Positions 11,597 to 33,145 of a stretch of DNA of 33,158 bases are shown in pieces (the first letter of the stretch is position 1; each line of letters begins with the position of its first letter). A program made the translations under genes and the position numbers. The stretch lies in the NCBI GenBank assembly GCA_000182565.2, contig KQ257458.1; one strand, written 5' to 3'. The notes beneath the pieces were generated by a model. It was given only the letters and a program-made list of their open reading frames with translations, ran no database searches and was not told where the DNA came from. The stretch is from Spizellomyces punctatus DAOM BR117 (Eukaryota).

Positions 11597-12018
11597 CATC
11601 TTCCTCCCACTCTCCCACAAACTCTTCTTCATCCCTTAATAACCCTCGTAGCTCTTCTACACGGCCTTCTAGATCCCTCCATATTCTTAATCGCTGGGTA
11701 ATGAGGTTGGAGAGAACTTGTACGTAGGTATCTATATCTCCATTTGGCTGTGTTACGGTCGAGATTAGGTGGTTGGTGCATGTCCCATTGTTGAGTTGAA
11801 TTATTGTGTATATTTGTTTCTATTTACTCGTTCTGATTCCCCGCGTCATCTTGTTCCCACTCTCCCACAAACTCTTCTTCATCCCTTAATAACCCTCGTA
11901 ACTCTTCTACACGGCCTTCTAGATCCCTCCATATTCTTAATCGCTGGGTAATCAGATTGGAGAGACCTTGTACGTAGGTGTCTATATCTCCATTTGGCTG
12001 TGTTACGGTCGAGATTAG
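11597..12018. repeat. ~170-bp direct duplication of the kinesin 3' coding end (11597-11768 vs 11847-12018)
   Basis: Near-identical copies offset by 250 bp. Confidence 0.95.
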
Positions 12019-15077: not shown

Positions 15078-15978
15078 GCTTCAACGCTAGATAATTTGCA
15101 TATTTAGTGCAGATAGACTTACTGTATAGTAACAGAATATATTTTGGTGTACTTTGTGACATCGACTACATGTCCCGAACCGTATTGTATATAAATGGAC
15201 GACGGGGGTTTCCCACGGTTTAGCTAAAGATTGATTACCAAGATGAAGAACAATGCCTTGCGAGAAACTGGGCCATTTTTTTTTTACGGACACTGGCCAA
15301 CAAACGTTGGATAGTTTTCTGAATTGGTACAAATGAAAATGGGTAGGAACTATATGCGACTGTTCGTTTTTTTTTATCCTGCTAACGAGTAGCGTGGCAC
15401 TACAATCACCGCAAGTTGCCCAGATGACAGCACGTTTTAGCATTCTGCCAAAAATTATTTTTGACTAGGACGCAAATACTATTTGGGTGTCGGCTGGTAG
15501 CAAAAACCGTCAATGACGTAAAACCCAAAAACGAGGAGAAGCAAACCATCTTGACTCGACCTATTTTTGTTCAGCTCACGAATACACTCAACGTTTGTCA
15601 AACCAGTGTCGAACTTGTAATGGGTTGGTATAATGAAATCAAACATGGCAGCTGAGCGAAACGCAAGACCAAGTAGTTTCTTGACTCGGATGAGACAGTG
15701 CTATTTGCCCCGAAACCTACGCGGTTGGGCTTCCCTTAGTAAACTACAGAAATCGGCTCTTACATCATGATTGCTCTGGATGCAGGTCATCAGCATTAAC
15801 CAGCCCTAATTACATTTGGATCGACTATCACGAAAAATCGTAAAAATTAGGAAACTACACATATAATGAAAAATAACAAAGGATTATTATTCTTCAAATT
15901 AGTTTGATTGCATTTTGTTGCCGGTAAATTAAAACTGCGTAGTACATTATATAATTTGAATTGTAAAGTTTATCCTTT

Positions 15979-16068
15979 ACCAAAAGCGCATGGTAGTGCG
16001 GAGCCGATGGGTATTGGCACTAGCACCCGCACCAGGAATTGAACCGGCGACAACCAGTTCGGATAAGC
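15979..16068 (-). ncRNA. Fanzor omegaRNA (scaffold 16068-15994 plus flank-derived guide from 15993)
   Basis: Minus strand GCTTATCCGAACTGGTTGTCGCCGGTTCAATTCCTGGTGCGGGTGCTAGTGCCAATACCCATCGGCTCCGCACTA|CCATGCGCTTTTGGT, starting 13 nt after the Fanzor stop; stems GAACTGG/CCGGTTC and GTGCGG/CCGCAC. Resembles the SpuFz1 scaffold as I recall it. Exact ends are inferred. Confidence 0.85.
15994..16023. repeat. Terminal inverted repeat (omegaRNA end)
   Basis: TAGTGCGGAGCCGATGGGTATTGGCACTAG, exact reverse complement of 31886-31915. Confidence 0.97.
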
Positions 16069-16081
16069 TAATCTAACCAAT

Positions 16082-16233
16082 CTACGCTACGGCTGGAACA
16101 CCCCTGCTGAACACCTCTGGTCTACCGTGCCCATCCAACATTGATTGCACGATTGTCAGCATATTACAGGTTGCCAGCATATCTCGGTTCCAGTAGCGCA
16201 TCGTCCAGGCTTGCTGCAAACAGTTAGGGTTGG
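16082..16233 (-). pseudogene. Fz1: Fanzor1 C-terminal fragment (end of Zn-finger region and RuvC-III)
   Basis: Not in the ORF track. Reads NPNCLQQAWTMRYWNRDMLATCNMLTIVQSMLDGHGRPEVFSRGVPAVA*; WNRD...N is the TnpB/Fanzor RuvC-III motif and ...GRP..F.R is the typical Fanzor1 tail. Confidence 0.9.
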
Positions 16234-16805
16234 TGTAACGGATTTTTTGTTGGTAGACTACGGTAAAGACAACTTGGGTCTCCTAGCAGGTTGTGTGGGT
16301 GTCCGTACTAGGAATCGTAGTCTCCAAATCCTTTCTTTGGGCGTCGGTAGCGACTTGAGGGCGAGAGGCAAGGAGAGTCGGTTAGTTGTGAACCGAGCAG
16401 GATTTAGAGGCTTCAGTGTGGGTGATCAGGCCGTTGAAGCACTCTGTTAGGTTCCTGTTAACCTAGGATTGGGGTTGAGAAGCTAGTTGTGGGGATTCTT
16501 TGTCACTACGGCTTCTGGCCGCCGACTTATTTTATTGAATTCCTCTTTTTATACAAGAATATGCTATGGTAACATCTACACTAGTTTCCGTAGCCTTCAT
16601 TAGGGTGGCGGCGTCCGATCTTCCCATCTCAGACCATCGCCATGATCGATCATGGCTGCGTAACGTATCCTTCACACTGCGCTGGTGTAGCCCAGAACCG
16701 AGCTTGATCTTAGGGGTTTTGAAGCTTAGGTTACAATTGCGGAAACCTCAATCGTGGTCACCTGATGCCTTTGAGCGAACCGGTTTATCAGAGTCGTTCA
16801 CTACA
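16234..16805 (-). repeat. 3' LTR of element 1 (type A)
   Basis: TGTAAC...CTACA termini; near-identical to 30916-31487; PPT adjacent. Confidence 0.95.
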
Positions 16806-16813
16806 TCCCCCCT
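16806..16813 (-). other. Polypurine tract
   Basis: AAGGGGGA immediately precedes the TG of the 3' LTR on the minus strand. Confidence 0.8.
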
Positions 16814-16862
16814 TCGAAAAAGAAGGTTCGGCGACTCGTCTGTGAGTGCCCGAACCTCGCTT

Positions 16863-18159
16863 CTACCATGACGCAACTGGATAGTCGTCGTCAGCTTCAA
16901 GGCTGTCTTCGTTGATCGTCCAGATTATGGTAGTGCACCCCATGACGTTCGCGCAGAACCAAATTTGGTCAGTGGCTTCTGGAGCCGGGGCTCCAGGTGT
17001 CCTGGAACCGTTGGCTCGGGTTACGTAGAGGGCTGTGAACGTCTCTGTGGCCCTTTTCAAGTTAACCGCTCGAAAGTGGTAATAGGCATGCTCCCAATGT
17101 TTGGGATGGAGCTGCTCTTCTGTGGTTTCAGCTGCATTGGCTAGCTTTAACAACACTGCTCTCGTGGCTTCGATGGCTATGTCCACAAAATCGTGGGCCT
17201 CGCAATCGGGCCAGAGGGTGAAGCGGGCCATTTTGGGGTTTCCGGCCGCATGTTGAGGGACCCCAGCGTCAAGCCAGGCAGCGCAGGGTACGTCCTGTAA
17301 TCTCTTGCCTATCTTTTTTGCATCAGTGATGATACCGACAGCAGCTTGACCGCCGTCGGAAGCCCTACTGTAGGGCTCCGCGATATGCATCGTGAGGGGC
17401 TGGCTCATGGCGTAAGGTTTCGAAGCCCCGTCAACCACCCAATCTTCACCACGATAGTGTTCAAGGGTTTTGTTTGGGTCTTTGTACAACTCATGAATCC
17501 AAACTTTGACCCAGGTGGCCATGGCTGCTCCGAGCCGCTCGATAGAGTTCTTGGCAGCGAAGGCATCGCTTACTTCTGACCAGGGATAGCCTTCCTCAAG
17601 GGTAGAGAGGATGCTGACTCCTTGTTGTCCTCGGATATTGGTGGTCATGGTGTTGGAAACGAAAGCTTTTGTTTCGGTGTCGATAGAAAGGGTTTGCGAA
17701 GCAGAGTGAGTGTGTAAGGGAAGTAGTTTGTTGGTAGTTGAAGAAGAAAAAAGAGGGGGGGCGAGCAGGGGCGCCCTTTTAAGGTTGTCGCCGGCTGATT
17801 TTGACAGCTCGGATGTGCGTAAGCGTGATCGGGAGGCTTGGTGTGGCGTTCTTGACTGGTGAGGTAAGCCACGCGAAACTGGTTTTCTTTCTGGTGAGAG
17901 GGCGTGATTATCACGTGAGCTATCATCCGGATAAACCGCGAAGCATTGGTGGTCGGAAGTGTAAGCCGTATCTTCCGGGGCGTCGCCTGCAAGGCTGACT
18001 ACCAAAGAGTCCTCTACTAGCGCGCTAGTGGGGGCTCTGGATCTCCAGTACTCTTCTAAGGCTTCGGAAGCCTCTGTTAGGGCTTCCTCTGGTTCCCAGG
18101 TATCCTCATGGGGTGGGTATCCAGACCAACGTATTCGAAATTGACGTTTTCCGCGCCTG
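16863..18159 (-). CDS. Distal part of element 1 pol: second half of chromodomain, linker and in-frame unknown domain (possible separate 261-aa ORF from ATG 17648)
   Basis: RRGKRQFRIRWSGYPPHEDTWEPEEAL continues GEFEVEAIVDHRT from 24575; frame is open to TAG at 16863, 50 bp before the PPT. Confidence 0.8.
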
Positions 18160-18759
18160 TGTAACGATGAGGACGTCTTCGAGAGATCGCGAGTAAGCCC
18201 AAATCGGACGCGGGAAGCACGAATCGCGTGACCAACTCCACCGATTGGGTTACCGCGACCGAAAGAACCGGTTCGGAGAATGGCAATTGGCGCATTAGAT
18301 TTCAGCGTGCCTCGTACAACCTGTGGAGGCCCGAGCCAGTGCGGAAAAGGAAGAGATCGGTACCGCCACCAATAAATCAGTTGCGGTGCAGCGACACCCA
18401 TTAGTTTAGTTTAGTTTAACAGTTTATCCAAGAATCTTGTATAAAAAGGATGTATTCAATAAAATAAGTCGGGGGCAGAAGCCGTAGCGACAAAAAATCC
18501 CCACAACTAGCTTCTCAACCCCAATCCTAGGTTAACAGGAACCTAACAGAGCGCTTCAATGGCCTGATCACCCGCACTGAAGCCTCTAAATCCTGCTCGG
18601 TTCACAACTAACTGACTCTCCTTGCCTCTCGCCCTCAAGTCGCTACCGATGCCCAAAGAAAGGATTTGGAGACTACGATTCCTAGTACGGACACCCACAC
18701 AACCTGCTAGGAGACCCAAGTTGTCTTTACCGTAGTCTACCAACAAAAAATCCGCTACA
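18160..18759 (+). repeat. 5' LTR of element 2 (type B, different U3)
   Basis: 600 bp, TG...CA, followed by PBS; from ~18436 (TCTTGTATAAAA) onward it matches type A LTR, upstream it does not. Confidence 0.88.
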
Positions 18760-18774
18760 TGGTGGAGAAGCGCG
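18760..18774 (+). other. Primer-binding site (probably tRNA-Ala)
   Basis: TGGTGGAGAAGCGCG directly after the LTR CA; complementary to a ...CUCCACCA tRNA 3' end. The tRNA identity is inferred. Confidence 0.75.
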
Positions 18775-18913
18775 ACGAACTGCCTTCCCCTCTCAAATTC
18801 AGCTGAAAACCTTATTTGGTCGTACCGAAACTCTTGCGCAAACCGAGATCTGCTCAGGTAGCTACTCGGAAACCTTTTCTCTCGTTTCGGAAACAGACTT
18901 CATGAAACCGAGA

Positions 18914-21718
18914 ATGATGCCGGTTGAACGCTCTCCAACGCGAGGCCGCTCACATGTGATCCAGACTCGTAGTCAGGGTCCTGCGGAGGACGTCAAAGTC
19001 CCTCCCGCAACACGCCCAAGGCGTTCAGGGACCACTTCCGTTGAACCGGAAGCCCCTAACTTGGCCACGATGGCCTCTGAAGTGGCAGCGTTAAAAGAAG
19101 ACATTGCCCACTCGACTGCTGCAATGCAGTTGGCAACTCAAAATCTTACGGAACAGCTTCATAGGCTTTCCGAACGTCAGACAGCGGCGGATGAGCGCCT
19201 CGCACGAGCCTTAGAAGCCCTAGCGCATCACCCGCTGCCTGAACAACCTCTCATAGCATGAGCTACAAGAGAACGGTCCGCAACCCCGTGGGAAACGTCG
19301 GACACACCAAGGGAGCATACCGAACCAAGTTTTTCAGGTCCGGTGCCTCCAATCCAAGTGCCAGCGGCCCCGTGGGCCAGCGACACCAAGGTCGATTCCT
19401 TGAAAGCAAAGGACGTACCCGAGTTTACGGGCAAAAGAAACCAAGACGTTGAAGAATGGCTCAACAAAGTCCAACTTCTTCAAAACGTTAGCGCAACGTC
19501 GGATGCCAGGATGGTACAGCTCCTACCAGCCATGATAGCCGAGAAAACCCCTGCCAACGCTTGGTTTTACACTCTGGAAGCCCAGGAAACTTGCTCGTGG
19601 ACCTGGAAAAGGTGGAAAGAAGAACTGCTTCGAGAGTTCCGAGATCCCCTAACCAAGTCCAAGCGCAAAACCGAATATGTGCGCTGCCACGCGAACCCCA
19701 AAGAATTTCGCAGCTTTCTCGTGTTCATTGACCACAAAACTCATCTCTGGCGCCTCGCATACGGCGACCGGGCAAACATAGAATGTCCCGCTGACCAGCA
19801 TTTCGACCTAATAGTCGAACAATTGCCCAGCGACATCCAAATCATGGTCAAATCCTGTAACGTCATGAACCTGACCAAATTAAAAGACTTCCTGCGCCTT
19901 TATTTTGGCTCTGATGACACCAGAAAACGAGACCCTTGCTACAGCGGTGCTGCTGAAGCTCAGAAGAAGTCACAAAAGACCGGAATCGACAAAGGCCCTA
20001 AGCAGACGGCTCAACATAAAACCAGAAACCCCGAAAAGGGTCGCGACGGCCCTCAGAAGATGGTTCCGGACCCCAACACGGAACCACCGGCACCCTGCAA
20101 ATTCTGTCAGAAAAAGCATTGGAATGTTTTCTGCTGGCAGAACCCGAACCGAAAAGATCCTGAAGATGGAAAGAAGGGACCATACGGAGCACCCATGCCC
20201 GCAGGTTGGAAACCCAAACAGGAGTCCAAGAAGTCGTACATAGTGGAGCTGGACTCGATGTCCGCTACCACCGAGACTCTTTTTTCGGCTTCGGAACTGG
20301 AAAGAACGGAAGCCGCTAATCAAGGATTCCACACCATCGGATTCTTTCATTCACCCGAGCACTCGGAATCAACAATTTTGATGACCGCACCTCTTTCCGA
20401 GGTCACGGTGACCAAGGAAGAGGACCCCCGCACGCCCACGCAGGGCTGGGACCAAGTCTGGGACAACATAGCCATCATCTGGGGCACCCCGCAAGTGGCT
20501 CTGATGATGGGCAACAACCCCCGCGCGCTCAGCTTCTTCGCCAAAGAACCGAAGCGAGGCGCCGGGCACCTCGGGAACGACCCCTACGCAGTCGCGTGGA
20601 GTTCCCACCACCTCTACATCGCTGCCGCAGCCGAAGCTGACAAGGATCGAATCCTGCGAAAAGTCTGAGAAGACGGTACCCCTCGTTTGATCCTCCTTGC
20701 CTGGATAAGGCTCGACGAGCGTGAGAAATTCTTGATGTGGAGCTCCGAAGATCCTGTTATCTTTGATTCTTACGCCAACCTGCAACTGGTGGCATTTCTC
20801 CTGACAGGCAATATCGTTCGCTCAGACTATTATTATCGTCGCGGAAACCCCAAATTTCTGCACGTTAAAGACCATCCACGTCTCCAAAGACACGAAGAGA
20901 GCGAATGGACGTGTATAGTCATGCTGGCTATCGAACAAGTTGCTCGCCAGAATAAAACAACAAAACCACAAAACGACAAATCTAGAGAGCACTTTGAGAG
21001 TGCAATCAAGGCTACGGAAGCAACAATTAATGACATCGCGCCCCATTTCGAGGTCGCGGTGCCTTCCATCAACGCCTTCTACTCGGTAGATTTAGGCGAT
21101 GTACTCAAAAGCCAGACCAAGACCCAAACGCAGCCTTGCTGGACGCTAGCCGTCATCGCTCAGCTCTGGGCACCTGTGGTGCTAGACACAGGAGCCTGCA
21201 AGTCTCTGGTTTCCGACACGTACCAGGGCCTTCTGTTCTCCGAAACCGATTTGCAGGATGCGGAAACGATGGCTTTCAAAGGCATTGGTGGACGTATCTC
21301 ATCTACCAAGACAGTATGCCTCGAAACTTCCCTCAGAGGCCGCGGAGGAGAATACCTGACTTTCCGCGCCTATTTCCGAGTCATTGCATACGGGAAACCT
21401 CTCATCATCCTAGCCAACGACATTCTGGGACATTTGAAACTCCAAACCTTGGTTCAGGAACCCCCGTTACCCAGTTTCGCGGTGACGCTCAAGAATCCGG
21501 ACATCCTTATCCCTTGCTCCATAACGGATGAGCTGGACACCGATCACATGCGCGGCACGCCATACAAGACCAAGCAGGGTGAATTCATGAAGGATGTGTC
21601 AATGCCACGGCTGACCAAAGCCAAAGCTCAGAAGTCTAGATTAACCATGTTAATCACGGGACAGACGCGCGTGGCAGCCCAAACTTTTCTCATCGAAAAC
21701 CCTCTTGAGGCCACCGCT
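18914..21718 (+). pseudogene. gag-protease of element 2, truncated before RT
   Basis: Near-identical to 30761-27958; CGA>TGA stops at 19259 and 20666; capsid-like VPEFTG...WL, CKFCQKKHWNVFC knuckle, VLDTGA protease. Confidence 0.92.
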
Positions 21719-22020
21719 TGCTGCAAGTGGTCACAGAACGGCGCAGAACGGAAGCTCTTGCTACATGTTCTCCCTACATAGCATTTTTATGAGAAAAAGG
21801 GGGGGACACAAAATACACTCCATGATTTTTGGGAAAAAAGCTGTATAAATTTGGTTCAATTGATGAAAAAGATAGAACTAAATAGAAATATCGACATGCC
21901 TGAGCCGGCATTGGCACTCCGTGCCGGCATGTTTAAATGGCCTCGTTGGTTTCCTGCTGAAAAACTGGTTGCATATTTCATGTAGGCAACTCAGGCGTCA
22001 GAACTCATCCCATCTCAACA

Positions 22021-23181
22021 TTACCTTCGAGGCATACCAGCCGGGATTGGCCGCTCCGCGCCCGGCATCTTCCGCCGCGGGATTTCTATGTGCGAAAATG
22101 TACCCTTCGGACGAACTTTTAACTTTTTCTGCTGCGCACGAGTACGAGCGGGCTGGATTCGGACAGGTATCAAGTCTTCAAGTTCTCTTGCTGCCTGCTT
22201 TTGCAAACGATCCCTTTTTTGTAATGCGGCCGCAACTTTGATTGTAACTGGTTCCTCGGTTTTGATGAGTTCATTATAGTTGAAAATTCGATCGGGAATC
22301 CCCTCTACCACATATCTATATGACCGCAGTTTGTCGAATGGTTTAATGACTTTCCCAATCCGATAAACATTGCTAGAGAAATTTTCTCGATGTGCCTTTT
22401 TGAACACATTGCCTTCATGTTTGACACGAACATGATCACCGATGGAGAATATTTCAGGTTCTTTCTGATGCATCTTCTCCCAGTATCTTTCCAAGTTTAT
22501 CAATGCCTTATACGGTTTCTCGATTGCTTCATGGGGAGACATCCCAATACCGCGATGTTCTCGCCTGTTAATCATTGATNNNNNNNNNNNNNNNNNNNNN
22601 NNNNNNNNNNNNNNNNNNNNNNNNNNNNNNNNNNNNNNNNNNNNNNNNNNNNNNNNNNNNNNNNNNNNNNNNNNNNNNNNNNNNNNNNNNNNNNNNNNNN
22701 NNNNNNNNNNNNNNNNNNNNNNNNNNNNNNNNAATCCCCCTGACATGTATGCTCCACCAGCGTCAGTAACGATTTTGTTGGGTCTCATTTTATAAGTCTT
22801 TAGCGAACGATCGAGAATATATCGCATTGCGGAACATACGGAAGTCTCGTCCAATTTCTTCAATGGTTGTGTAAATACCATCTTTGAAAACTTGTCCACG
22901 CATACCAAAATATGAGAACATCCTTTATTCTGACGAGGATAAGCGTCCGATCCTAAAGCGAGACAATCGCTTTCCCAAACATCAAATGGTGCATATGTAC
23001 GCTGAACGTTCAGGTTCAGCCTCTTCTTTTTTCGATGTATTTGATGAGTACGTTCTTTCTCCAGAAATGACTTTATGTCTTTCAAGGACAAGTCTGTCCC
23101 TTGTCTCTTCAGCATATTCTTCAAGCCGGATGCTCCTACCGGAGCTCCAGGCGTGTAATACAACTTCCGGAGTTCCTCCAT
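22021..23181 (-). CDS. Polinton/Maverick-type retroviral-like (rve) integrase
   Basis: LRKLYY...G N-terminus, WESD, ILVCVDKFSK, IVTDAG, N...HRGIGMSP, FSIGDHVRV...FKK....FS..VYRI; standalone, intronless, no HHCC or RT context. Catalytic E region lies in gap 22580-22732. Confidence 0.82.
   Translation of the reverse strand: MEELRKLYYTPGAPVGASGLKNMLKRQGTDLSLKDIKSFLEKERTHQIHRKKKRLNLNVQRTYAPFDVWESDCLALGSDAYPRQNKGCSHILVCVDKFSKMVFTQPLKKLDETSVCSAMRYILDRSLKTYKMRPNKIVTDAGGAYMSGGXXXXXXXXXXXXXXXXXXXXXXXXXXXXXXXXXXXXXXXXXXXXXXXXXXXXSMINRREHRGIGMSPHEAIEKPYKALINLERYWEKMHQKEPEIFSIGDHVRVKHEGNVFKKAHRENFSSNVYRIGKVIKPFDKLRSYRYVVEGIPDRIFNYNELIKTEEPVTIKVAAALQKRDRLQKQAARELEDLIPVRIQPARTRAQQKKLKVRPKGTFSHIEIPRRKMPGAERPIPAGMPRR
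22580..22732. other. Assembly gap
   Basis: Run of N inside the integrase ORF. Confidence 1.
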
Positions 23182-23201
23182 ATTTGTATGTAACGCTTAA
23201 T

Positions 23202-23936
23202 TTATTTCATATAGAATTGTTTTACAGCATCGTTCGTTCTTTTTTGTTTTCGTCTATTCTCTGAAATGTCTAATGGTGCAAGATTTTCATAGTGATTTGA
23301 TCCGCCTTGGGATTCAGGCATTATGTGATCGATTTCAAAGTTCCATCGGTAGTCATTCCATGACATGCCCTTAAGATCTTTCGACTTTTTGAGCAGTTCT
23401 TGGATGTATGACAAGAATTCTTCAAAAGTGCAACCTTCAACCCATGAGAGAGAGGTCCTCAGTTGCGCCATCCAAGCGGGATCCTCCATCTGGTTTCTAA
23501 GTGAAATAGAGGAGAATGATATAAATTTGCTGTGCTTTGCCCGAGACACTGCTGTATATAACATTCTCTTCGACATCTTCTCTACCTCGTGGATGGTGAA
23601 CGGTCTGTTAAATGTTTGCCCTTGTGCCTTGTGTACTGTGGTACAATAACCAGAAAGAAAAAACTTTTGAAATTTGTTCCTGGGTACAGTGCATTTCATT
23701 ATACCATCGGATAAATCCTCTTTTTCACAAATGACCTTTGTGTCATTCCAACTGGAAATACGCCATCGGGTTCCCTTGATCACTCCTTGATTGCGCATTG
23801 GCTTTCTAGAAACCACAGGGGATCCCTTGATGAAAATACAATCTTGCGTTTTTGAATCTTTGGGGATTCTTGGGCACTTTAGGATCCTTGCTTTGTTCCT
23901 CTCCAATTGTTCATCTCGTTTCATGTTAAGATCATT
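23202..23936 (-). CDS. 5'-truncated SF1B (RecD/Pif1-like) helicase C-terminus fused to an HNH endonuclease domain
   Basis: GYCTTVHKAQGQT and MLYTAVSRA (motifs V/VI), then EIDHIMPESQGGSNHYENLAPLDISENRRK. Walker A/B absent because the frame is cut by an LTR fragment at 23937. Confidence 0.85.
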   Translation of the reverse strand, partial: NDLNMKRDEQLERNKARILKCPRIPKDSKTQDCIFIKGSPVVSRKPMRNQGVIKGTRWRISSWNDTKVICEKEDLSDGIMKCTVPRNKFQKFFLSGYCTTVHKAQGQTFNRPFTIHEVEKMSKRMLYTAVSRAKHSKFISFSSISLRNQMEDPAWMAQLRTSLSWVEGCTFEEFLSYIQELLKKSKDLKGMSWNDYRWNFEIDHIMPESQGGSNHYENLAPLDISENRRKQKRTNDAVKQFYMK

Positions 23937-24349
23937 CCGAGCAGGATTTAGAGGCTTCAGTGCGGGTGATCAGGCCGTTGAAGCGCTCTGTTAGGTTCCT
24001 GTTAACCTAGGATTGGGGTTGAGAAGCTAGTTGTGGGGATTCTTTGTCGCTACGGCTTCTGGCCGCCGACTTATTTTATTGAATTCCTCTTTTTATACAA
24101 GAATATGCTACGGTAACGTCTACACTAGTTTCCGTAGCCTTCATTAGGGTGGCGGCGTCCGATCTTCCCATCTCGGACCATCGCCATGATCGATCATGGC
24201 TGCGTAACATATCCTTCACGCTGCGCTGGTGTAGCCCAGAACCGAGCTTGATCTTAGGGGTTTCGAAGCTTAGGTTACAATTGCGGAAACCTCAATCGTG
24301 GTCACCTGATGCCTTTGAGCGAACCGGTTTATCAGAGTCGTTCGCTACA
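23937..24349 (-). repeat. Truncated type A LTR (third insertion) abutting the 3' LTR remnant of element 2
   Basis: Matches 31075-31487; intact CTACA end at 24349. Confidence 0.92.
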
Positions 24350-24574
24350 ACAGGAACCTAACAGAGTGCTTCAACGGCCTGATCACCTGCACTGAAGCCT
24401 CTAAATCCTGCTCGGTTCACAACTAACCGACTCTCCTTGCCTCTCGCCCTCAAGTCGCTACCGACGCCCAAAGAAAGGATTTGGAGACTACGATTCCTAG
24501 TACGGACACCCACACAACCTGCTAGGAGACCCAAGTTGTCTTTACCGTAGTCTACCAACAAAAAATCCGTTACA
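24350..24574 (+). repeat. Remnant (last 225 bp) of the 3' LTR of element 2
   Basis: Matches 18535-18759; ends CCGTTACA followed by CCTG. Confidence 0.92.
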
Positions 24575-27500
24575 CCTGGTTCGATGGTCTACTATCGCTT
24601 CCACTTCAAACTCGCCCTCTGAAGCGTCAGAATCCTCCGCTTGTGCTTCCGCGACCTTTTCCTCAGTTTTGGCGTCGACAGGCTTCTGGTACGGACGTAA
24701 TTTCGATATGTGAAACCATGGATGAAGTCGTCTCATCTTGTCTGGCAGTTTTAACTCATAGTTGTCGTGGAGAGGGTTACAGTTGGTCACCGTGACTGGT
24801 CCCAGCCATTTCGGAGCAATCTTGGACTCATACCCTGCTAGGTTTTTTGTGCTCAGAAGCACCTTATCTCCTCTCCGGAACTCCAGATGTCGTCGTGATA
24901 AATCGTAATATCTTTTCTGCGAGTCCTGGGCCTCGATCATCAGATCCCGGATAAGGATGTTTAGGTCTCCGAGATGTTTACAGAGCTCTTCCGCGTCTGC
25001 ATTTCTGGTTTCTGACGGCCTTTCAACGATGTCCGCCAGTGGATTGTGGGGCTCATAGCCTAGGTCCATCTTGAACCGCGTCATTTTTGTCGCCTCGTGT
25101 ACCGTATCGTTGATAATGAATTCCACAACCGGAAGAAAGGTGTCCCAGTCGTCTAATCGGGTGTTGACCATTGTGGTAAGGACCTGCAAGACCGTTGCGT
25201 TGTCTCTCTCTGATTGTCCATCACCTTGAGGGTNNNNNNNNNNNNNNNNNNNNNNNNNNNNNNNNNNNNNNNNNNNNNNNNNNNNNNNNNNNNNNNNNNN
25301 NNNNNNNNNNNNNNNNNNNNNNNNNNNNNNNNNNNNNNNNNNNNNNNNNNNNNNNNNNNNNNNNNNNNNNNNNNNNNNNNNNNNNNNNNNNNNNNNNNNN
25401 NNNNNNNNNNNNNNNNNNNNNNNNNNNNNNNNNNNNNNNNNNNNNNNNNNNNNNNNNNNNNNNNNNNNNNNNNNNNNNNNNNNNNNNNNNNNNNNNNNNN
25501 NNNNNNNNNNNNNNNNNNNNNNNNNNNNNNNNGGTGGTATGGGTTTCAACAACCCCGGAATCAGTTGCGGTACCCTTTTTGAGCGTTGGCAGGTTTCACA
25601 TCCTGCGCAATGTTTTCTGAAATCTTGTGCCATCTTTGGCCACCAGACTTGTGCTGTGGCTCTGGCGTAGGTTCTTTCGAATCCGAAGTGTCCTCCCCCC
25701 TCGTGAAAAAGCTTGCGCACCTTGGGGGTGCAAGCAGGGGGCACGTAGAGGCACCAAAGGTCTTCGGAGACTGAAAAACGGTGCCACAGCAGGTTATCTG
25801 CACATTGCCAGTCCTGAAGAAAGTGCGCATCGGCTGTAGTGTAGGTGTTGGGGCTGGTCTCCCATAGGAGCGTGCGGGGCCTGTTGGGCTATGGGGTGGA
25901 GCTGGCCGGTGAGGCCAGCGCGGATGGCGGCAATGAGTGCAGGCTGTAAGGCCAGACGAAAGACGGCATCTGCCAGTGTCGAGGAAGGTGCGAGAGCAGC
26001 TGGTGTGGTGCGCAGCCGTCGTCTTCCGCGTTTCGACACCCATATTTGGGTCGCGGTGGAGCAGAGTAGGGTTTCCGCTCCTAGTAGCCGTGAAAGTGTA
26101 TCAGCGACAATGTGAAAACGTCCTGGTTTGTGAACGATTGTCATCCATTCGGACCAGTAACTAAGATCGAGGGCCCAGCGGAGAAGCTTACGGTTCTCGC
26201 CTTTGTATTTAGCGAGCCACAAAAGAGCTCGGTGATCAGTAATGACCGTGAAAGGCAGGCCTTCGAGGTATGGGTGGAGTTTTCCGAGGCCCCAAATGAG
26301 GCATCCGGCCTCGAGTTCGACAGGGGGGGCCTTCTTTTCCGAGGTGGTGGTGCCTCGGGAATGGTAGCACAGCGGGCATTTAGAAGCATCCGGCTGTAAC
26401 TGTTCGAGCGTGACATTAAACGCTGTGTAGGAAGCGTCACTGTGAAGGGTGTAGGGGAACCCTTTTCTGGGTGCCGCAAGCACTGGAGCTGTTGTCAGAG
26501 CCTGCTTGGCAGCTGCGAAGGCAGAGTTTCAGGAATCGGTCCATGAAACTTCACGCTTCGCGATAAATCTGCGCAGACCTTGGTCGGGGCACTTGCGAGC
26601 AAGGCGTCCGACACAAAAGGGGTCAATGGGCAAGTCCACCAATGATGATTGGCGTAGATTGACTGCCGGTAGGTCTGAGGAGCTAGATTTTGGATGTTGT
26701 GAAACCTCAAATCGGGCTCCAGTGGCTGTGATTGTAGGGGCCACCGCCATGTCGAGCATGGATGGTGAATTGAGCTTTTCAGCGCCTTTCTTTAGGTCAG
26801 CGCGACCCTTTTTAAGGTCTTGGTATTCACGAACACCCTCTTGGATAGCGTCTTGCAGGGGTCGGATGAGTTCCACGTAGCGGGGGATGAATTGGGCGTA
26901 GAACCCTAGGAGACCCATGAAGGACCATAGGTCACCTATGAATTTGGGTCATGGCCAATCGACTATGGTTGCGACCTTGTCTGGATCGGTAGCGAGACCC
27001 TGAGAGGAGGCAACGAAACCGAGAGCCGTGAGCTGGTGAAAGAGCCATTGACACTTGTCGAGTCTTAGGGTGAGTTTGGCTCTGGAAAAGCAGTCGAGCC
27101 AGTCCGCGATGGCATCTAGGGCTTCCGCGGCTGTCTCCGCTCGTGTGTGGATATCGTCGACAAAGTTGTTGATATTTCGCCATTTGGAGGGACCCAAGGT
27201 GTCGTCCATCACCTGACAGAAGTGCGAAGGGGCAGTCTTGGGTCCGAAGGGCATAAAGAGTGGTTCATAGATGCCGTCATGGAGTCTGATCGCGAGCCAT
27301 TTGTGTACCGACGCATCGGTGATGGCAATTTGGTAAAATCCTTTGTTTGCATCACCTCCCAATATGTATCGGAATGGGACTGTGACGATCCAGTTCAGGA
27401 TGTCGAGCATGATGGGAAAGGGATATGGGTCCCAGGCCATGCAGTTGTTGGCTCGGCGATAGTCGAAGGCTACCCGCAGGGGTTTGTCTGCATAGCGAAT

Positions 27501-30500
27501 GATAACAGGATCGCTGGCGAAGGTTACTTTGGTGGTTCATTTCCACCTCTGAAGCCCCATCATGGTGTCTCGCTCCATCTCGAGGGCTGTCCGCTCCAAC
27601 GGAGAGTACGACCGTGGCCTCGAAAGGGGTGGCGGAGCCGAGATAAATCGAGGCGCATAAGGAATCTTGGTGTAGTTCCCTATGAGATGACCCTCATAGC
27701 TGAAGGCTTGATGGAAGTGTTGTAGAATGTTGATTAGGGCCCAGACCACGGGTTTGGGTCACTTGAGATCAACGTGGAAACGTTCCGCATCTTTTAATTG
27801 GGCTTCGAAGGCCCCTGGAGCCCTCTCCGTAGAGTCGAGGTTCCATTTGTTCTGAAGTGTCTGCCATTCTTCTTTGGAAATGTTCTCTTCGGGGTCCACA
27901 ACCGAATTATGGGTCGCGGTGGACAGTTTGAGGCCTAACGGGGCTGTTGAGCTAGCAGCGGTGGCCTCAAGAGGGTTTTCGATGAGAAAAGTTTGGGCTG
28001 CCACGCGCATCTGTCCCATGATTAACATGGTTAATCTAGACTTCTGAGCTTTGGCTTTGGTCAGCCGTGGCATTGACACATCCTTCATGAATTCACCCTG
28101 CTTGGTCTTGTATGGCATGCCGCGCATGTGATCGGTGTCCAGCTCATCCGTTATGGAGCAAGGGATAAGGATGTCCGGATTCTTGAGTGTCACCGCGAAA
28201 CTGGGTAACGGGGGTTCCTGAACCAAGGTTTGGAGTTTCAAATGTCCCAGAACGTCGTTGGCTAGGATGATGAGAGGTTTCCCATATGCAATGACTCGGA
28301 AATAGGCGCGGAAAGTCAGGTATTCTCCTCCGCGGCCTCTGAGGGAAGTTTCGAGGCATACTGTCTTGGTAGATGAGATACGTCCACCAATGCCTTTGAA
28401 AGCCATTGTTTCCGCATCCTGCAAATTGGTTTTGGAGAACAGAAGGCCCTGGTACATGTCGGAAACCAGAGACTTGCAGGCTCCTGTGTCTAGTACCACA
28501 GGTGCCCAGAGCTGAGCAATGACAGCTAGCATCCAGCAAGGCTGCGTTTGGGTCTTGGTCTGGCTTTTGAGTACATCACCTAAATCTACCGAGTAGAAGG
28601 CGTTGATGGAAGGCACCGCAACCTCGAAATGGGGCGCGATGTCGTTAATTGTTGCTTCCGTAGCCTTGATCGCACTCTCAAAGTGCTCTCTAGATTTGTC
28701 GTTTTGTGGTTTTGTTGTTTTATTCTGGCGAGCAACTTGTTCGATAGCCAGCATGACTATACACGTCCGTTCGCTCTCTTCGTGTCTTTGGAGATGTGGA
28801 TGGTCTTTAACGTGCAGAAATTTGGGGTTTCCGCAACGATAATAATAGTCTGAGCGAACGATATTGCCTGTCAGGAGAAATGCCACCAGTTGCAGGTTGG
28901 CGTAAGAATCAAAGATAACAGGATCTTCGGAGCTCCACATCAAGAATTTCTCACGCTCATCGAGCCTTATCCAGGCAAGGAGGATCAAACGAGGGGTACC
29001 GTCTTCTCGGACTTTTCGCAGGATTCGATCCTTGTCAGCTTCGGCTGTGGCAGCGATGTAGAGGTGGTGGGAACTCCACGCGACTGCGTAGGGGTCATTC
29101 CCGAGGTGCCCGGTGCCTCGCTTCGGTTCTTTGGCGAAGAAGCTGAGCGCGCGGGGGTTGTTGCCCATCATCAGAGCCACTTGCGGGGTGCCCCAGATGA
29201 TGGCTATGTTGTCCCAGACTTGGTCCCAGCCCTGCGTGGGCGTGCGGGGGTCCTCTTCCTTAGTCTCCGTGACCTCGGAAAGAGGTGCGGTCATCAAAAT
29301 TGTTGATTCCGAGTGCTTGGGTGAATGAAAGAATCCGATGGTGTGGAATCCTTGATTAGCAGCGGCTGTCCTTTCCAGTTCCGAAGCCGAAAAAAGAGTC
29401 TCGGTGGTAGCAGACGTCGAGTCCAGCTCCACTATGTACGACTTCTTGGACTCCTGTTTGGGTTTCCAACCTGCGGGCATGGGTGCTCCATATGGTCCCT
29501 TCTTTCCATCTTCAGGATCTTTTCGGTTCGGGTTCTGCCAGCAGAAAACATTCCAATGCTTTTTCTGACAGAATTTGCAGGGTGCCGGTGGTTCCGTGTT
29601 GGGGTCCGGAACCATCTTCTGAGGGCCGTCGCGACCCTTTTCGGGGTTTCCGGTTTTATGTTGAGCCGTCTGCTTAGGGCCTTTGTCGATTCCGGTCTTT
29701 TGTGACTTCTTCTGAGCTTCAGCAGCACCGCTGTAGCAAGGGTCTCGTTTTCTGGTGTCATCAGAGCCGAAATAAAGGCGCAGGAAGTCTTTTAATTTGG
29801 TCAGGTTCGTGACGTTACAGGATTTGACCATGATTTGGATGTCGCTGGGCAATTGTTCGACTATTAGGTCGAAATGCTGGTCAGCGGGACATTCTATGTT
29901 TGCCTGGTCACCATATGCGAGGCGCCGGAGATGAGTTTTGTGGTCAATGAACGCGAGAAAGCTGCGAAATTCTTTGGGGTTCGCGTGGCAGTGCACATAT
30001 TCAGTTTTGCACTTGGACTCGGTTAGGGGATCTCGGAACTCTCGAAGCAGTTCTTCTTTCCACCTTTTCCAGGTCCACGAGTGAGTTTCCTGGGCTTCCA
30101 GAGTGTAAAACCAAGCATCGGCAGGGGTTTTCTCGGCTATCATGGCTGGTAGGAGCTGTACCATCCTGGCATCCGACGTTGCGCTAATGTTTTGAAGAAG
30201 TTGGACTTTGTTGAGCCATTCTTCAACATCTTGGTTTCTTTTGCCCGTAAACTCGGGTACGTCCTTTGCTTTCAAGGAATCGACCTTGGTGTCGCTGGCC
30301 CACGGGGCTGCTGGCACTTGGATTGGAGGCACCAGACCTGAAAAACTTGGTTCGGTATGCTCCCTTGGTGTGTCCGACGTTTCCCATGGGGTTGCGGACC
30401 GTTCTCTTGTAGCTCGTGCTATGAGAGGTTGTTCAGGCAGCGGGCGATGTGCTAGGGCTTCTAAGGCTCGTGCGAGGCGCTCATCCGCCGCTGTCTGACG

Positions 30501-30761
30501 TTCGGAAAGCCTATGAAGCTGTTCCGTAAGATTTTGAGTTGCCAACTGCATTGCAGCAGTCGAGCGGGCAATGTCTTCTTTTAATGCTGCCACTTCAGAG
30601 GCCATCGTGGCCAAGTTAGGGGCTTCCGGTTCGACGGAAGTGGTCCCTGAACGCCTTGGGCGTGTTGCGGGAGGGACTTCGACGTCCTCCGCAGGACCCT
30701 GACTACGAGTCTGGATCACAGGTGAGCGGCCTCGCGTTGGAGAGCGTTCGACCGGCATCAT
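24575..30761 (-). pseudogene. gag-pol of element 1 (several premature stops, a frameshift near 25.85-25.9 kb)
   Basis: gag, Zn knuckle, VLDTGA protease, RT (DPYPFP, DANKGFYQI, MPFGPKTAP, FVDD), RNase H (LHSDAS, ELEA, VITDHRAL, VADTLSR), integrase (H-GGGH...C..C, PQGDGQSER, KWLGP), start of chromodomain; gap 25234-25532. Confidence 0.95.
25234..25532. other. Assembly gap
   Basis: Run of N inside the gypsy integrase. Confidence 1.
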
Positions 30762-30900
30762 TCTCGGTTTCGTGAAGTCTGTTTCTGAAACAAGAGAAAA
30801 GGTTTCCGAGTAGCTACCTGAGCGGATCTTGGTTTGCGCAAGAGTTTTGGTATGACCGAATAAGGTTTTCAGCTGAATTTGAGAGGGGAAGGCAGTTCGT

Positions 30901-30915
30901 CGCGCTTCTCCACCA
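30901..30915 (-). other. Primer-binding site of element 1
   Basis: TGGTGGAGAAGCGCG on the minus strand directly after the 5' LTR. Confidence 0.8.
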
Positions 30916-31487
30916 TGTAACGGATTTTTTGTTGGTAGACTATGGTAAAGACAACTTGGGTCTCCTAGCAGGTTGTGTGGGTGTCCGTACTAGGAATCAT
31001 AGTCTCCAAATCCTTTCTTTGGGCGTCGGTAGCGACTTGAGGGCGAGAGGCAAGGAGAGTCGGTTAGTTGTGAACCGAGCAGGATTTAGAGGCTTCAGTG
31101 TGGGTGATCAGGCCGTTGAAGCACTCTGTTAGGTTCCTGTTAACCTAGGATTGGGGTTGAGAAGCTAGTTGTGGGGATTCTTTGTCGCTACGGCTTCTGG
31201 CCGCCGACTTATTTTATTGAATTCCTCTTTTTATACAAGAATATGCTACGGTAACATCTACACTAGTTTCCGTAGCCTTCATTAGGGTGGCGGCGTCCGA
31301 TCTTCCCATCTCGGACCATCGCCATGATCGATCATGGCTGCATAACGTATCCTTCACGCTGCGCTGGTGTAGCCCAGAACCGAGCTTGATCTTAGGGGTT
31401 TCGAAGCTTAGGTTACAATTGCGGAAACCTCAATTGTGGTCACCTGATGCCTTTGAGCGAACCGGTTTATCAGAGTCGTTCGCTACA
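30916..31487 (-). repeat. 5' LTR of element 1 (type A)
   Basis: 572 bp, TG...CA, followed by PBS and gag. Confidence 0.95.
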
Positions 31488-31754
31488 CTCCCCCTTGTTG
31501 AGAAGATAGAGAATTGCTTCGATTGTATCTTCATTTACCGTGGGAAAGGTTGGTGCATATAGGATGTAGAATTTGAGAGCGTGGGAAGCATGGTCAGCAA
31601 GTTGATGGATGATGGTGATGTAATCTAGAAGACGCTGCCAGTAGGTCTCATCAGGCAAGAAAGCCTTTGTGAAGGACGTCTTGTTGCAGGTATGTAAGGT
31701 GGGTTTGTCAAGTTTTTCGAGCCTTTCGAGCTTTTGCTTTTTCTTTGGTGGCAT
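31488..31754 (-). pseudogene. Fz1: Fanzor1 N-terminal fragment (~89 codons), cut by the LTR
   Basis: MPPKKKQKLERLEKLDKPTLHTCNKTSFTKAFLPDETYWQRLLDYITIIHQLADHASHALKFYIL...EDTIEAILYLLNKGE; SV40-like NLS (PKKKQK); closely matches the SpuFz1 N-terminus as recalled. Confidence 0.88.
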
Positions 31755-31885
31755 GATGATATCTGTAGAAAAAGATGAAAGCCTGGGAAAATGGACGATG
31801 ACTTATATAGGATTTTGTGGATCAAACCATAGTTCATGAGTCTAAATCGAGTAAAATTATGATTAAATTGGTTGGAATCTTTGTA

Positions 31886-31915
31886 CTAGTGCCAATACCC
31901 ATCGGCTCCGCACTA
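31886..31915. repeat. Terminal inverted repeat (5'/TAM end)
   Basis: CTAGTGCCAATACCCATCGGCTCCGCACTA; minus strand outside reads ...TTTA-CATA|GTGCGG. Confidence 0.97.
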
Positions 31916-32319
31916 TGTAAATGGATGACTGGGGTTTCCCACGGTTTGCTAAAGCTTTCATTTCAGAAGTTTAAAGTAAGAAATAATGATTGAAAGAAAA
32001 ACATTGAAAAACGATTTTCATTTCGATCAACTCTCGCACTACGTATACCGTGTATCCATTCGAAATCTTGGGGCACGAACTCTATATATTCGAAATTCGT
32101 ATCCTCAAAGAACACAAGTCGGGCGTAAACGACCAATGAACAAAGAGGTAAGTGACCAAAAAGCCAAAAATGCTCGTCTTGTTCCAGAAATGGCATCCCA
32201 GAATTTATGCTATTTAAGCATGTCTTGGAGTGGATTAACTGATGGGATACAATTTTGAAAAAATACCGCTGGTTATGAGGGGCATGCACCGATTGAGACC
32301 TTTGTGGGTAGTTGTTACT

Positions 32320-33145
32320 GCGTTCCAAGTTTATCATTTCCTCTAATTTTCGGGCTAATAGCAATCAATATTCCATCAAGATAGAAAAGCAACCATTCTC
32401 TGAGGCGACATTACTGGACGATCATTTCTAGAATCCGGGCAACTTGTCAATTCCTCGAGCAAGTATTATTGCGTTGTGAGCACATTATGATTCCTCTAAT
32501 TTTTTGGCAATTATCGCTTCATCAAAGCTTTTTCGCGAAAACACAACCTTCTCTGCCAACTTGGGCAACCCACCCGCGTTTTGAATACCAGGGTCGCCAG
32601 GCAAACTGCCGATAAAGTTAAGGCGTACATTTTCGGCCGGTAACCGATCGAAATCTTTGGGGGGTAAGTGTTGTTTGCGTTTGTACGCAAGTTCATCATT
32701 CCTCTACTGTTAGGGCCAATATGAATCGTCTCTCCATCAGGAAGTACCTGTATGTTAAAGTCATCATTTCCTCTAATGTTAGGGCCAACAGGAACCATCT
32801 CTCCATCAACGCGTCAAATGGATATTGAAAGACCTGGCCAAGTACAACAAGCCCACTCCTGTGCCAGTGATATGCTGTCCCTATCAAGCAAGACAAGCAG
32901 CAGATATCAGTGGTTATAGGCGAATTATGTGTAGCTTAGCGGCTTTGCTTCCTATATATACCACAGTTTTGGAGTTCCCACGGGTTTCTGAAGCTTTATC
33001 TCTTTGCGAAAAAACCAAACCATTCTCTGAGGCCCCCGATTTTGGACAGATGTCCCCAGAGGAACCGGTAAGTTTTTACTGCTAGTGGGCAAGTTTATCA
33101 TATCTAATTTTTCTGGTCAATAGCAATGATTGTCTCCACCAAGGC
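32320..33145. repeat. Degenerate ~50-bp module repeated four times
   Basis: AAGT..ATCAT...CTA....GG..AA....TCCA at ~32327, ~32689, ~32758, ~33091; AACCATTCTCTGAGGC at 32391 and ~33018. Confidence 0.6.

What the first reader, a model, noticed from the sequence alone, without database searches (positions are those of the whole stretch)
15994..31915. Hidden Fanzor (eukaryotic RNA-guided nuclease) transposon whose two halves lie 15 kb apart
Seen: a perfect 30-bp inverted repeat brackets the whole TE nest. Just inside one end is an NLS-bearing ORF start (31754-31488); just inside the other, same strand, is a WNRD RuvC-III fragment with stop (16233-16082). Established: Fanzors are TnpB-related OMEGA nucleases, and S. 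punctatus SpuFz1 sits in a TIR element with TA duplication. Inference: this is a disabled Spu-1-like copy that ORF-based searches would miss, since neither fragment is long and the C-terminal one has no start codon. The system class is known; this locus may not be annotated.
Basis: partly seen in the sequence, partly recalled or inferred. Interest (0 to 1): 0.9.

Follow-up and report, generated by a model that had tools for sequence, protein, structure and literature searches.

The report
Fanzor transposon copy gutted by retrotransposons
This is a dead copy of the known Spu-1 transposon of the fungus Spizellomyces punctatus, whose RNA-guided nuclease gene (Fanzor1) was split and mostly lost when retrotransposons landed in it; broken copies of this kind are already in print, so it is ordinary.

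Summary
A perfect 30-nt inverted repeat (15994-16023 / 31886-31915) brackets 15,922 bp. Just inside one end, on the minus strand, lie codons 1-89 of a Fanzor1 gene (31754-31488). Just inside the other lie its last 50 codons, with the WNRD RuvC-III motif and the stop (16234-16082). Both match solved SpuFz1 (E 1.9e-45 and 5.4e-26) and about 20 Spizellomyces punctatus paralogs at up to 97-98% identity.

Both breaks sit exactly at the ends of two 572-bp LTRs of one Ty3/gypsy chromovirus family. The roughly 467 middle codons, including RuvC-I and RuvC-II, appear nowhere in the window. The sequences flanking the two LTRs do not match, so I infer two insertions followed by recombination between the elements.

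The transposon ends are intact: the CA+TA motif (TAM CATA) and a 75-nt omegaRNA scaffold that folds as published. Its one private base change is at C32, where the paper names only a backbone contact.

Saito et al. 2023 already report 42 Fz loci in this genome, 11 of them with extra genes such as Gypsy/Ty3 between the repeats, some in the Fz gene. The finding is real but already known. The nest crosses two assembly gaps.

The parts
15979..15993 (-). Predicted omegaRNA guide: the 15 nt of host flank just beyond the right-end IR (CCAUGCGCUUUUGGU as RNA)
   Evidence: Position inferred from Saito 2023, where transcripts extend 14-15 nt beyond the 75-nt scaffold. Sequence. Not shown to be transcribed at this locus.
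15994..16023 (.). Right-end (3') inverted repeat of the Spu-1 element, 30 nt, beginning with TA
15994..16068 (-). omegaRNA scaffold, 75 nt: stem-loop 1, 6-nt linker, long stem 2 with an 8-nt loop
   Evidence: Fold at -29 kcal/mol, z -2.95, 2 of 200 shuffles as good. Nucleotides named in the paper match from position 29 to 75, except U for C at 32. 16037 is private to this locus.
16082..16234 (-). Fanzor1 C-terminal fragment: 50 codons (TNPNC...WNRD...VPAVA) plus the stop at 16084-16082. It holds the RuvC-III Asp (D606 of SpuFz1) and has no start codon.
   Evidence: E 5.4e-26 to 8gkh, chain residues 980-1032. (98% to P0004 aa 556-605).
16234..16805 (-). 572-bp LTR (TG...CA), the 3' LTR of the minus-strand composite chromovirus. 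A polypurine tract lies just inside it.
16806..30915 (-). Interior of the nest. Minus strand: gag-protease ORF 30989-27759, RT 27536-26949, RNase H 26528-25794, integrase 25888-24542, chromodomain ORF 18410-16863. Interrupting pieces: an inverted partial copy at 18435-21722, an unrelated stretch at 21723-23936, and LTR pieces at 23937-24576. Two N gaps.
30916..31487 (-). 572-bp LTR, the 5' LTR of the composite chromovirus, followed inward by a TGG... primer-binding site
   Evidence: 98.1% identical to 16234-16811 over 579 nt
31488..31754 (-). Fanzor1 N-terminal fragment: codons 1-89 with the PPKKKQK basic stretch and H21/T22/K25. The frame then runs 5 codons into the LTR and stops.
   Evidence: E 1.9e-45 to 8gkh. 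(97% to P0002, 91% to P0004).
31755..31885 (-). 5' untranslated and promoter stretch of the Spu-1 element between the left IR and the ATG
   Evidence: Conserved in another copy: P0020 aa 1-29 match 31837-31754 at 86%
31886..31915 (.). Left-end (5') inverted repeat, 30 nt
31916..31917 (-). CA just upstream of the left IR. With the TA that opens the IR it makes the CATA TAM of SpuFz1.
   Evidence: Sequence. Motif from Saito 2023.

Best explanation
The span 15994-31915 is one copy of the Spu-1 transposon of Spizellomyces punctatus, the TIR element that carries the Fanzor1 RNA-guided nuclease SpuFz1 and its omegaRNA. It lies on the minus strand.

Ty3/gypsy chromovirus elements of one family integrated into its nuclease gene. 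Only codons 1-89 and the last 50 codons remain. About 467 codons are gone, including RuvC-I, RuvC-II, REC and most of the zinc finger, so the nuclease is dead.

Both breaks are exact LTR termini and the flanks of the two LTRs do not match. The most likely history (inferred, about 55%) is therefore two integrations of the same family at two sites in the gene, followed by recombination between the two elements that removed the gene's middle. Further fragments then nested inside.

The transposon's cis parts survive: both 30-nt IRs, the CA+TA TAM context and a 75-nt omegaRNA scaffold of the canonical type. If transcribed (not shown), this RNA could load onto Fanzor protein made by intact paralogs and direct it to the CATA-flanked empty site, as published for the gene-less ghost loci.
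For: Shown:
- IR pair confirmed.
- The N fragment matches SpuFz1 chain residues 396-486, which are SpuFz1 residues 2-92 after the MBP tag (E 1.9e-45).
- The C fragment matches the last 53 residues, including WNRD (E 5.4e-26).
- 22 of 22 listed homologues are Fanzor paralogs: 20 named S. punctatus DAOM BR117, 1 Spizellomyces sp. 'palustris' and 1 unnamed.
- tblastn of these 22 paralogs against the window finds only the two end pieces, apart from one 24-aa retroelement match of P0020.
- Among the 8 paralogs that matched both ends, P0004 and P0007 are closest to both fragments (N 91% and 90%, C 98% and 96%). This fits one element.
- Breaks lie at LTR termini. The LTRs are 98.1% alike. The flanks are gttgg and ctccc, so there is no shared target duplication.
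- Chromovirus domains lie on the same strand.
- Independent DNA reads (X22): 51 reads run on past 16234 into letters that encode GLLGC, the uninterrupted gene of the paralogs. Flank depth is 0.2-4 against 107-344 per direction inside the element. The locus's own A at 16037 is carried by 13 of 388 reads.
- The scaffold fold matches the published two stems, 6-nt linker and 8-nt stem-2 loop (passages).

From print: 42 Fz loci, 11 of them with embedded genes including Gypsy/Ty3 in the Fz gene; 30-nt IR; CA; CATA (Saito 2023, section 7). SPu-1 is about 2.1 kb with 33-bp TIRs and TA duplications (Bao and Jurka 2013, passage).
Against: - The interior crosses two N gaps, and no read or contig shown bridges either Fanzor/LTR junction. 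Linkage of the two halves therefore rests on the scaffold.
- TA and CATA are common to all copies, so they cannot prove that the two ends belong together.
- No paralog DNA could be fetched. The ends and the omegaRNA were compared only with nucleotides named in a paper and with read variants.
- The 5' part of the scaffold is one position out of register with the paper's numbering (U6 C7 C8 here against U5 C6 C7).
- At most 1 of 56 RNA reads over 16037 can come from this locus, so its transcription is unknown.
- The two-insertion history is inference. A single insertion followed by a deletion is not excluded.
Confidence: 0.9

Rival explanations
1. One chromovirus integrated once into the Fanzor gene, and a later deletion removed the 1.4 kb of gene sequence next to it. 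Only one integration is needed.
For: It requires one insertion rather than two. The nest shows other rearrangements: an inverted partial copy at 18435-21722 and a head-to-head LTR junction at 24349.
Against: Both junctions lie exactly at LTR termini (TG at 16234, CA at 31487). A deletion would have to end precisely at an LTR tip. The flanks gttgg and ctccc show no remnant of a shared target duplication.
Confidence: 0.2
2. The two halves come from two different truncated Spu-1 copies, each invaded by the same chromovirus family. They were brought together by mis-scaffolding through the repeats or by a real rearrangement.
For: Two N gaps lie inside the nest. The genome has dozens of Spu-1 copies and many LTR copies (depths). 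At least one other Fanzor gene model runs into this retroelement (P0020). TA and CATA cannot tell copies apart.
Against: Order, strand and facing IRs are exactly those of one element. The two LTRs are in direct orientation, with coding domains in the right order between them. Both fragments are closest to the same two full-length paralogs.
Confidence: 0.07
3. The gene is still functional and the 15-kb nest is removed as an intron or by trans-splicing.
For: None beyond the two fragments lying on the same strand.
Against: The fragments cover only 139 of about 605 codons. The RuvC-I Asp and RuvC-II Glu (D383 and E541 in SpuFz1) lie in the part that is absent from the whole window. The N fragment's frame hits stops 5 codons into the LTR.
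Confidence: 0.01

Closest known systems
Spu-1 element carrying SpuFz1 (Fanzor1) of Spizellomyces punctatus DAOM BR117 (Bao and Jurka 2013, PMC3627910; Saito et al. 2023, PMC10432273; PDB 8gkh)
   Same: 30-nt IRs (33 with one mismatch), TA at both ends, CA before the 5' IR. N- and C-terminal protein sequence 87-98% identical to paralogs. [quoted passage not shown]
   Different: 15.9 kb instead of about 2.1 kb. Only 139 of about 605-638 codons are left, and two of the three RuvC catalytic residues are missing. One private change in the omegaRNA linker (U for C32).
Fz loci with Gypsy/Ty3 inserted in the Fz gene (11 loci with embedded genes; Saito et al. 2023, section 7)
   Same: The same genome and element, and the same kind of invader between the IRs.
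   Different: The main text gives no coordinates, so identity with one of the 11 could not be checked (supplements closed). Here the middle of the gene is also lost.
Ghost Spu-1 loci (134 gene-less IR-flanked omegaRNA loci; Saito et al. 2023)
   Same: No working nuclease gene, yet IRs, the CA motif and an omegaRNA scaffold are kept. Any action would need Fanzor supplied in trans.
   Different: Ghosts are a conserved family of about 550 nt whose IRs differ at 7 positions and whose stem 2 has a 3-nt bulge. This locus has the canonical 8-nt loop and still holds gene fragments, so it is a recently broken autonomous copy and not a ghost-family member.
Ty3/gypsy chromoviruses (the invader)
   Same: TG...CA LTRs, a TGG primer-binding site, a polypurine tract, the order gag-PR-RT-RH-INT and a chromodomain after the integrase.
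   Different: Its gag-protease ORF (1076 aa) has no Pfam match at E < 0.01. About 390 further residues follow the chromodomain.

Membership tests
Spu-1 transposon (Fanzor1 carrier, S. punctatus) | 30-33-bp terminal inverted repeats | tested here: met
   30 of 30 identical, 32 of 33
Spu-1 transposon (Fanzor1 carrier, S. punctatus) | TA at both ends and CA upstream of the 5' IR (CATA TAM) | tested here: met
   31917-31916 read CA on the minus strand and both IRs open with TA. Motif.
Spu-1 transposon (Fanzor1 carrier, S. punctatus) | One uninterrupted ORF of about 600-638 aa within a locus of about 2.1 kb | tested here: not met
   Only aa 1-89 and the last 50 are present, and the span is 15,922 bp. 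This is a broken member.
Spu-1 transposon (Fanzor1 carrier, S. punctatus) | [quoted passage not shown] | tested here: met
   Fold. A29, C34, U35, G37, C40, G70, A72 and A75 agree with the paper's numbering, and C32 is U here. The canonical sequence itself was not available. No Rfam family matched.
Fanzor1 / TnpB-like RuvC nuclease | Sequence homology to a characterised Fanzor1 | tested here: met
   E 1.9e-45 and 5.4e-26 to SpuFz1 8gkh. The C fragment also matches Parasitella Fanzor1 9cf0 at E 0.043.
Fanzor1 / TnpB-like RuvC nuclease | Complete RuvC triad (D383, E541, D606 in SpuFz1) | tested here: not met
   Only the D606 equivalent (WNRD) is present. The stretch that would hold D383 and E541 is absent from the window.
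Fanzor1 / TnpB-like RuvC nuclease | Zinc finger of the NUC domain | tested here: not met
   Judged from the paralog alignment, the break removes CPRC and the first Cys of GCTNPNC. Only the last Cys is left.
Ghost Spu-1 loci | Conserved gene-less element of about 550 nt, with variant IRs and a 3-nt bulge in stem 2 | tested here: not met
   Gene fragments are present and stem 2 has the 8-nt loop of the canonical type. The IR variant positions could not be compared (figure and supplement not available).
Ty3/gypsy chromovirus (the nest) | LTRs with TG...CA, PBS, PPT, RT-RH-INT order and a chromodomain | tested here: met
   RVT_1 4.3e-11, RT_RNaseH 2.4e-22, Integrase_H2C2 2.4e-18, Chromo 2.8e-10, all on the minus strand. 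LTR ends, PBS and PPT. LDTGA protease motif (regex motif recalled).

The most novel reading that the evidence does not exclude
The wreck is not inert. With both IRs, the CATA context and an intact canonical omegaRNA, it behaves as a 15.9-kb ghost. Its omegaRNA might be transcribed by read-through from the 3' LTR that now sits 150 bp upstream of it. It would be loaded by Fanzor from intact paralogs and would direct cutting of the empty allele. The retrotransposon nest would then be maintained, or even copied, as cargo of an RNA-guided homing element. The repeated invasion of Spu-1 copies by one chromovirus family would reflect chromodomain targeting of silenced Fanzor elements.
Probability: 0.12. 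Interest if true: 0.4.

Novelty: already known. Interest (0 to 1): 0.15.

Why it matters
It also gives a worked anatomy of how a Fanzor1 copy dies: retrotransposon hits remove the nuclease while sparing the IRs and the guide-RNA module.

It adds little to biology. The family, the organism, the copy census and the existence of Ty3-invaded copies are all published. The only modest open point is whether such wrecks still supply guides in trans, as the ghost loci do.

Tried and rejected
- Whole-genome search for the TIR and for intact copies: no genome is held.
- Exact scan of metagenome contigs with a 23-nt IR pattern: 0 hits.
- Protein-seeded scan of the same collection with P0004: 179 pattern matches, none confirmed. 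No paralog DNA was obtained, so no end alignment or covariation test of the omegaRNA was possible.
- Pfam on the two fragments: 0 families. The local Pfam copy lacks PF26935, the family precomputed for the paralogs, and gave nothing for full-length P0006 either.
- Rfam on 15800-16400: 0 matches.
- Search for the canonical omegaRNA letters in the main texts of two papers: not printed there.
- RNA. No RNA holder was listed by the run search. The laid RNA run (X21) gives reads over the Spu-1 3' end, but they come from the whole family: 55 of 56 reads over 16037 carry the family's base. The library's strand convention could not be calibrated on this stretch. Nothing can therefore be said about expression of this locus or the sense of the family's transcripts.
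- No read or contig listed bridges 16233/16234, so the junction is not independently confirmed (129 contig pieces and 147 loose ends were not shown).
- The frame beginning at 16233 for the C fragment has stops; the frame one base off is the right one.
- A 10-mismatch IR-like hit at 32710-32739 was rejected as chance (0.12 expected).
- Earlier scan notes: none for this genome or for look-alike sequence.
Full report
**Observation.** The repeat finder gives arms 15994-16026 and 31883-31915, 33 nt with one mismatch. The outer 30 nt are identical. The 28-nt core occurs only at these two places even with 3 mismatches allowed, and 0 of 100 shuffles gave a match.

On the minus strand, 31754-31488 reads MPPKKKQKLERLEKLDKPTLHTCNK... 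for 89 codons. The frame beginning at 16233 contains stops. The neighbouring frame (codons 16234-16085, stop 16084-16082) reads TNPNCLQQAWTMRYWNRDMLATCNML...VPAVA*.

**Identity.** Against the sequences of solved structures, the N fragment matches chain residues 396-486 of MBP-tagged SpuFz1 (8gkh), which are SpuFz1 residues 2-92, at E 1.9e-45. The C fragment matches the chain's last 53 residues at E 5.4e-26, and more weakly the C-terminus of Parasitella Fanzor1 (E 0.043).

A search for longer proteins returned 22 hits. Twenty are named from Spizellomyces punctatus DAOM BR117, one from Spizellomyces sp. 'palustris', and one is unnamed. Identity to the N fragment reaches 96%. P0006 (638 aa, SPPG_07727) has the N-terminal sequence of the solved protein.

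The window is therefore S. punctatus or a very close relative. This is inferred from paralog identity. Contigs of runs labelled with one organism also match 15600-16022 with 0 differences. Pfam gave nothing for the fragments or for full-length P0006. The local copy lacks PF26935, which is precomputed on the paralogs.

**What is missing.**
- tblastn of the 22 paralogs against the whole window finds only residues 1 to about 89 and, for those with a C-terminus, about 556-605 in P0004 numbering. In SpuFz1 numbering these are 1-91 and 587-638.
- The only other hit is a 24-residue match of P0020 to retroelement sequence.
- About 467 codons (1.4 kb) are therefore absent. The paper names D383, E541 and D606 as metal-binding catalytic residues (passage). 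Only the D606 equivalent, in WNRD, is left.
- The N fragment keeps H21, T22 and K25, which the paper names as WED contacts.
- Among the 8 paralogs that matched both ends, P0004 and P0007 are closest to both fragments: N 91% and 90%, C 98% and 96%. This fits a single source element but does not prove one.

**Why it is broken.**
- Self-comparison shows a direct repeat, 16234-16811 against 30916-31494, at 98.1% identity. The shorter copy at 23937-24349 sets the repeat's end at 16805 / 31487.
- The unit is 572 bp, TGTAACGG...GCTACA on the plus strand.
- On the minus strand the right copy is followed by TGGTGGAGAAGC, which looks like a primer-binding site. The left copy is preceded by AAGGGGGGA, a polypurine tract.
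- Between them, all on the minus strand, lie:
  - a 1076-aa ORF with a knuckle-like CKFCQKKHWNVFC and an LDTGA protease motif (motifs recalled);
  - RVT_1 (4.3e-11);
  - RT_RNaseH (2.4e-22);
  - Integrase_H2C2 (2.4e-18) and SH3_Tf2-1;
  - a chromodomain (2.8e-10).
- This is a Ty3/gypsy chromovirus. Its body is interrupted by an inverted partial copy (18435-21722, 97.3% to 31240-27954), by LTR pieces meeting head to head at 24349, and by an unrelated stretch at 21723-23936.
- The two Fanzor fragments end exactly at the outer LTR tips. The five bases outside the tips, gttgg and ctccc, do not match, so this is not one simple integration.
- I infer two integrations of the same family into the gene, then recombination between the two elements that removed everything between them. 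One integration plus a deletion is the main alternative. It needs a deletion ending precisely at an LTR tip.

**Independent reads.**
- In a DNA run of 2026 with the same species label (X22, 38-nt reads), the host flank has 0.2-4 reads per direction and bin. The element has 107-344, so this is a multi-copy family.
- 51 reads match up to 16234 and then run on with ACAACCCA. Two contigs extend this to ACAACCCAGCAATCC, whose complement encodes GLLGC, the residues that precede TNPNC in intact paralogs. This fixes the break to within one base.
- At 16037 the window's A is carried by 13 of 388 DNA reads and the rest have G. The locus's own variant therefore exists in independent data, at about the share expected of one copy among some thirty.
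- No listed read or contig bridges either Fanzor/LTR junction. The nest also contains two N runs. Linkage of the halves rests on the scaffold.

**The ends and the guide RNA.**
- Saito et al. 2023 (section 7 read whole; other passages) report the following:
  - Spu-1 loci of about 2.1 kb with 30-nt IRs, and CA upstream of the 5' IR;
  - a CATA TAM;
- Here the minus-strand 5' flank ends in CA (31917-31916) and both IRs open with TA.
- The 75 nt at 16068-15994 fold into a short stem-loop, a single-stranded linker and a long second stem with an 8-nt loop (-29 kcal/mol, z -2.95, 2 of 200 shuffles as good). The paper describes the 8-nt loop as the canonical form, not the ghost form.
- Counting from 16068, positions A29, C34, U35, G37, C40, G70, A72 and A75 carry the bases the paper names. 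Position 32 is U where the paper has C. That is the private 16037 change, and the paper names only backbone contacts for C32.
- Near the 5' end the register is off by one: U6 C7 C8 here against U5 C6 C7. I could not resolve this without the canonical sequence, which is not in the main texts.
- The predicted guide is the 15 nt beyond the IR (15993-15979). At the filled site these are preceded by ACTA, not CATA. By the published TAM dependence, only an empty site (CA, TA, then this flank) would be a target. This last step is inference.

**Comparison and novelty.**
- Bao and Jurka 2013 (passage) described SPu-1 with 33-bp TIRs, TA duplications and 17 full-length copies.
- Saito et al. count 42 loci with full or partial Fz genes and 134 ghost loci. 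[quoted passage not shown]
- The kind of locus is therefore in print, for this genome. Their locus lists are in supplements that I could not open.
- No protein model of this locus is in the protein collection. The best matches are 96-97% identical and the exact 94-aa ORF is absent.
- It is not a ghost-family member, because it keeps gene fragments and has the canonical stem 2.

**What led nowhere.** No genome is held. Two metagenome scans found nothing. Rfam gave no match. The RNA reads cannot be assigned to this locus or to a strand. Earlier scan notes hold nothing for this genome. A word search returned eight notes on Fanzor remnants and guide RNAs in other genomes, six of them marked giant-virus, and these bear on this locus only by analogy.

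**Verdict.** This is a real, correctly read and well-preserved wreck of a known element. Confidence in its identity is 0.9 and in the two-insertion history about 0.55. Interest is low.

Noticed in passing
window 31488-31496 and 16806-16814: The Fanzor codons next to the 5' LTR (AAGGGGGAG on the minus strand, N-K-G-E) closely resemble the retroelement's own polypurine tract next to its 3' LTR (AAGGGGGGA). This is why the LTR self-match runs 6-7 nt past the LTR end. It may be chance or a sign of microhomology at the junction.
   Followed up: partly
window 18157-18228 (+): The last 24 residues of an annotated S. punctatus protein (P0020, SPPG_02589) are 100% identical to the antisense strand of this chromovirus. 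Its first ~220 residues are mostly Fanzor N-terminal sequence. So a second Spu-1 copy elsewhere is invaded by the same family, and its gene model is a chimera.
   Followed up: partly
window 27759-30989 (-): The 1076-aa gag-protease ORF of the chromovirus has no Pfam match at E < 0.01. Only a knuckle-like motif and LDTGA identify it. A second copy, 97% alike and broken by stops, lies inverted at 18435-21722.
   Followed up: partly
window 16863-18410 (-): The chromodomain (residues 85-123 of this 515-aa frame) is followed by about 390 further residues with no family match before the polypurine tract. That is an unusually long tail for a chromovirus integrase.
   Followed up: no
window 21723-23969 (-): Inside the nest are two ORFs. 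One has a UvrD_C_2 helicase C-terminal domain plus an HNH nuclease motif. The other has a weak integrase-core match (E 8.8e-5, below Pfam's cut-off) and is interrupted by an N gap. Both lie downstream of an LTR truncated at 23937. The Atlas's nearest clusters are UvrD_C_2 hypotheticals. Possibly a fragment of another mobile element.
   Followed up: partly
window 23937-24576: An LTR piece and an inverted LTR piece meet head to head at 24349 and share a 67-nt palindromic overlap. This is either a real rearrangement or an assembly artefact near a gap.
   Followed up: no
window 16260-16800: RNA reads over the LTR switch library strand abruptly near 16480-16520: depth 130-476 on one side and 20-30 on the other strand beyond it. 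This would fit divergent transcription from a promoter inside the LTR. The strand convention of the library is unknown.
   Followed up: no
window 6818-13146: Host genes lie in the left flank: a multicopper oxidase (6818-7726, -) and an FTR1 iron permease (9958-10971, +) arranged divergently, and a kinesin motor (11824-13146, -). The element therefore sits in gene-bearing DNA, about 2.8 kb from the kinesin.
   Followed up: no
window 11589-12018: Two 180-nt direct repeats, 94% alike and spaced 250 nt apart, lie at or just past one end of the kinesin frame.
   Followed up: no
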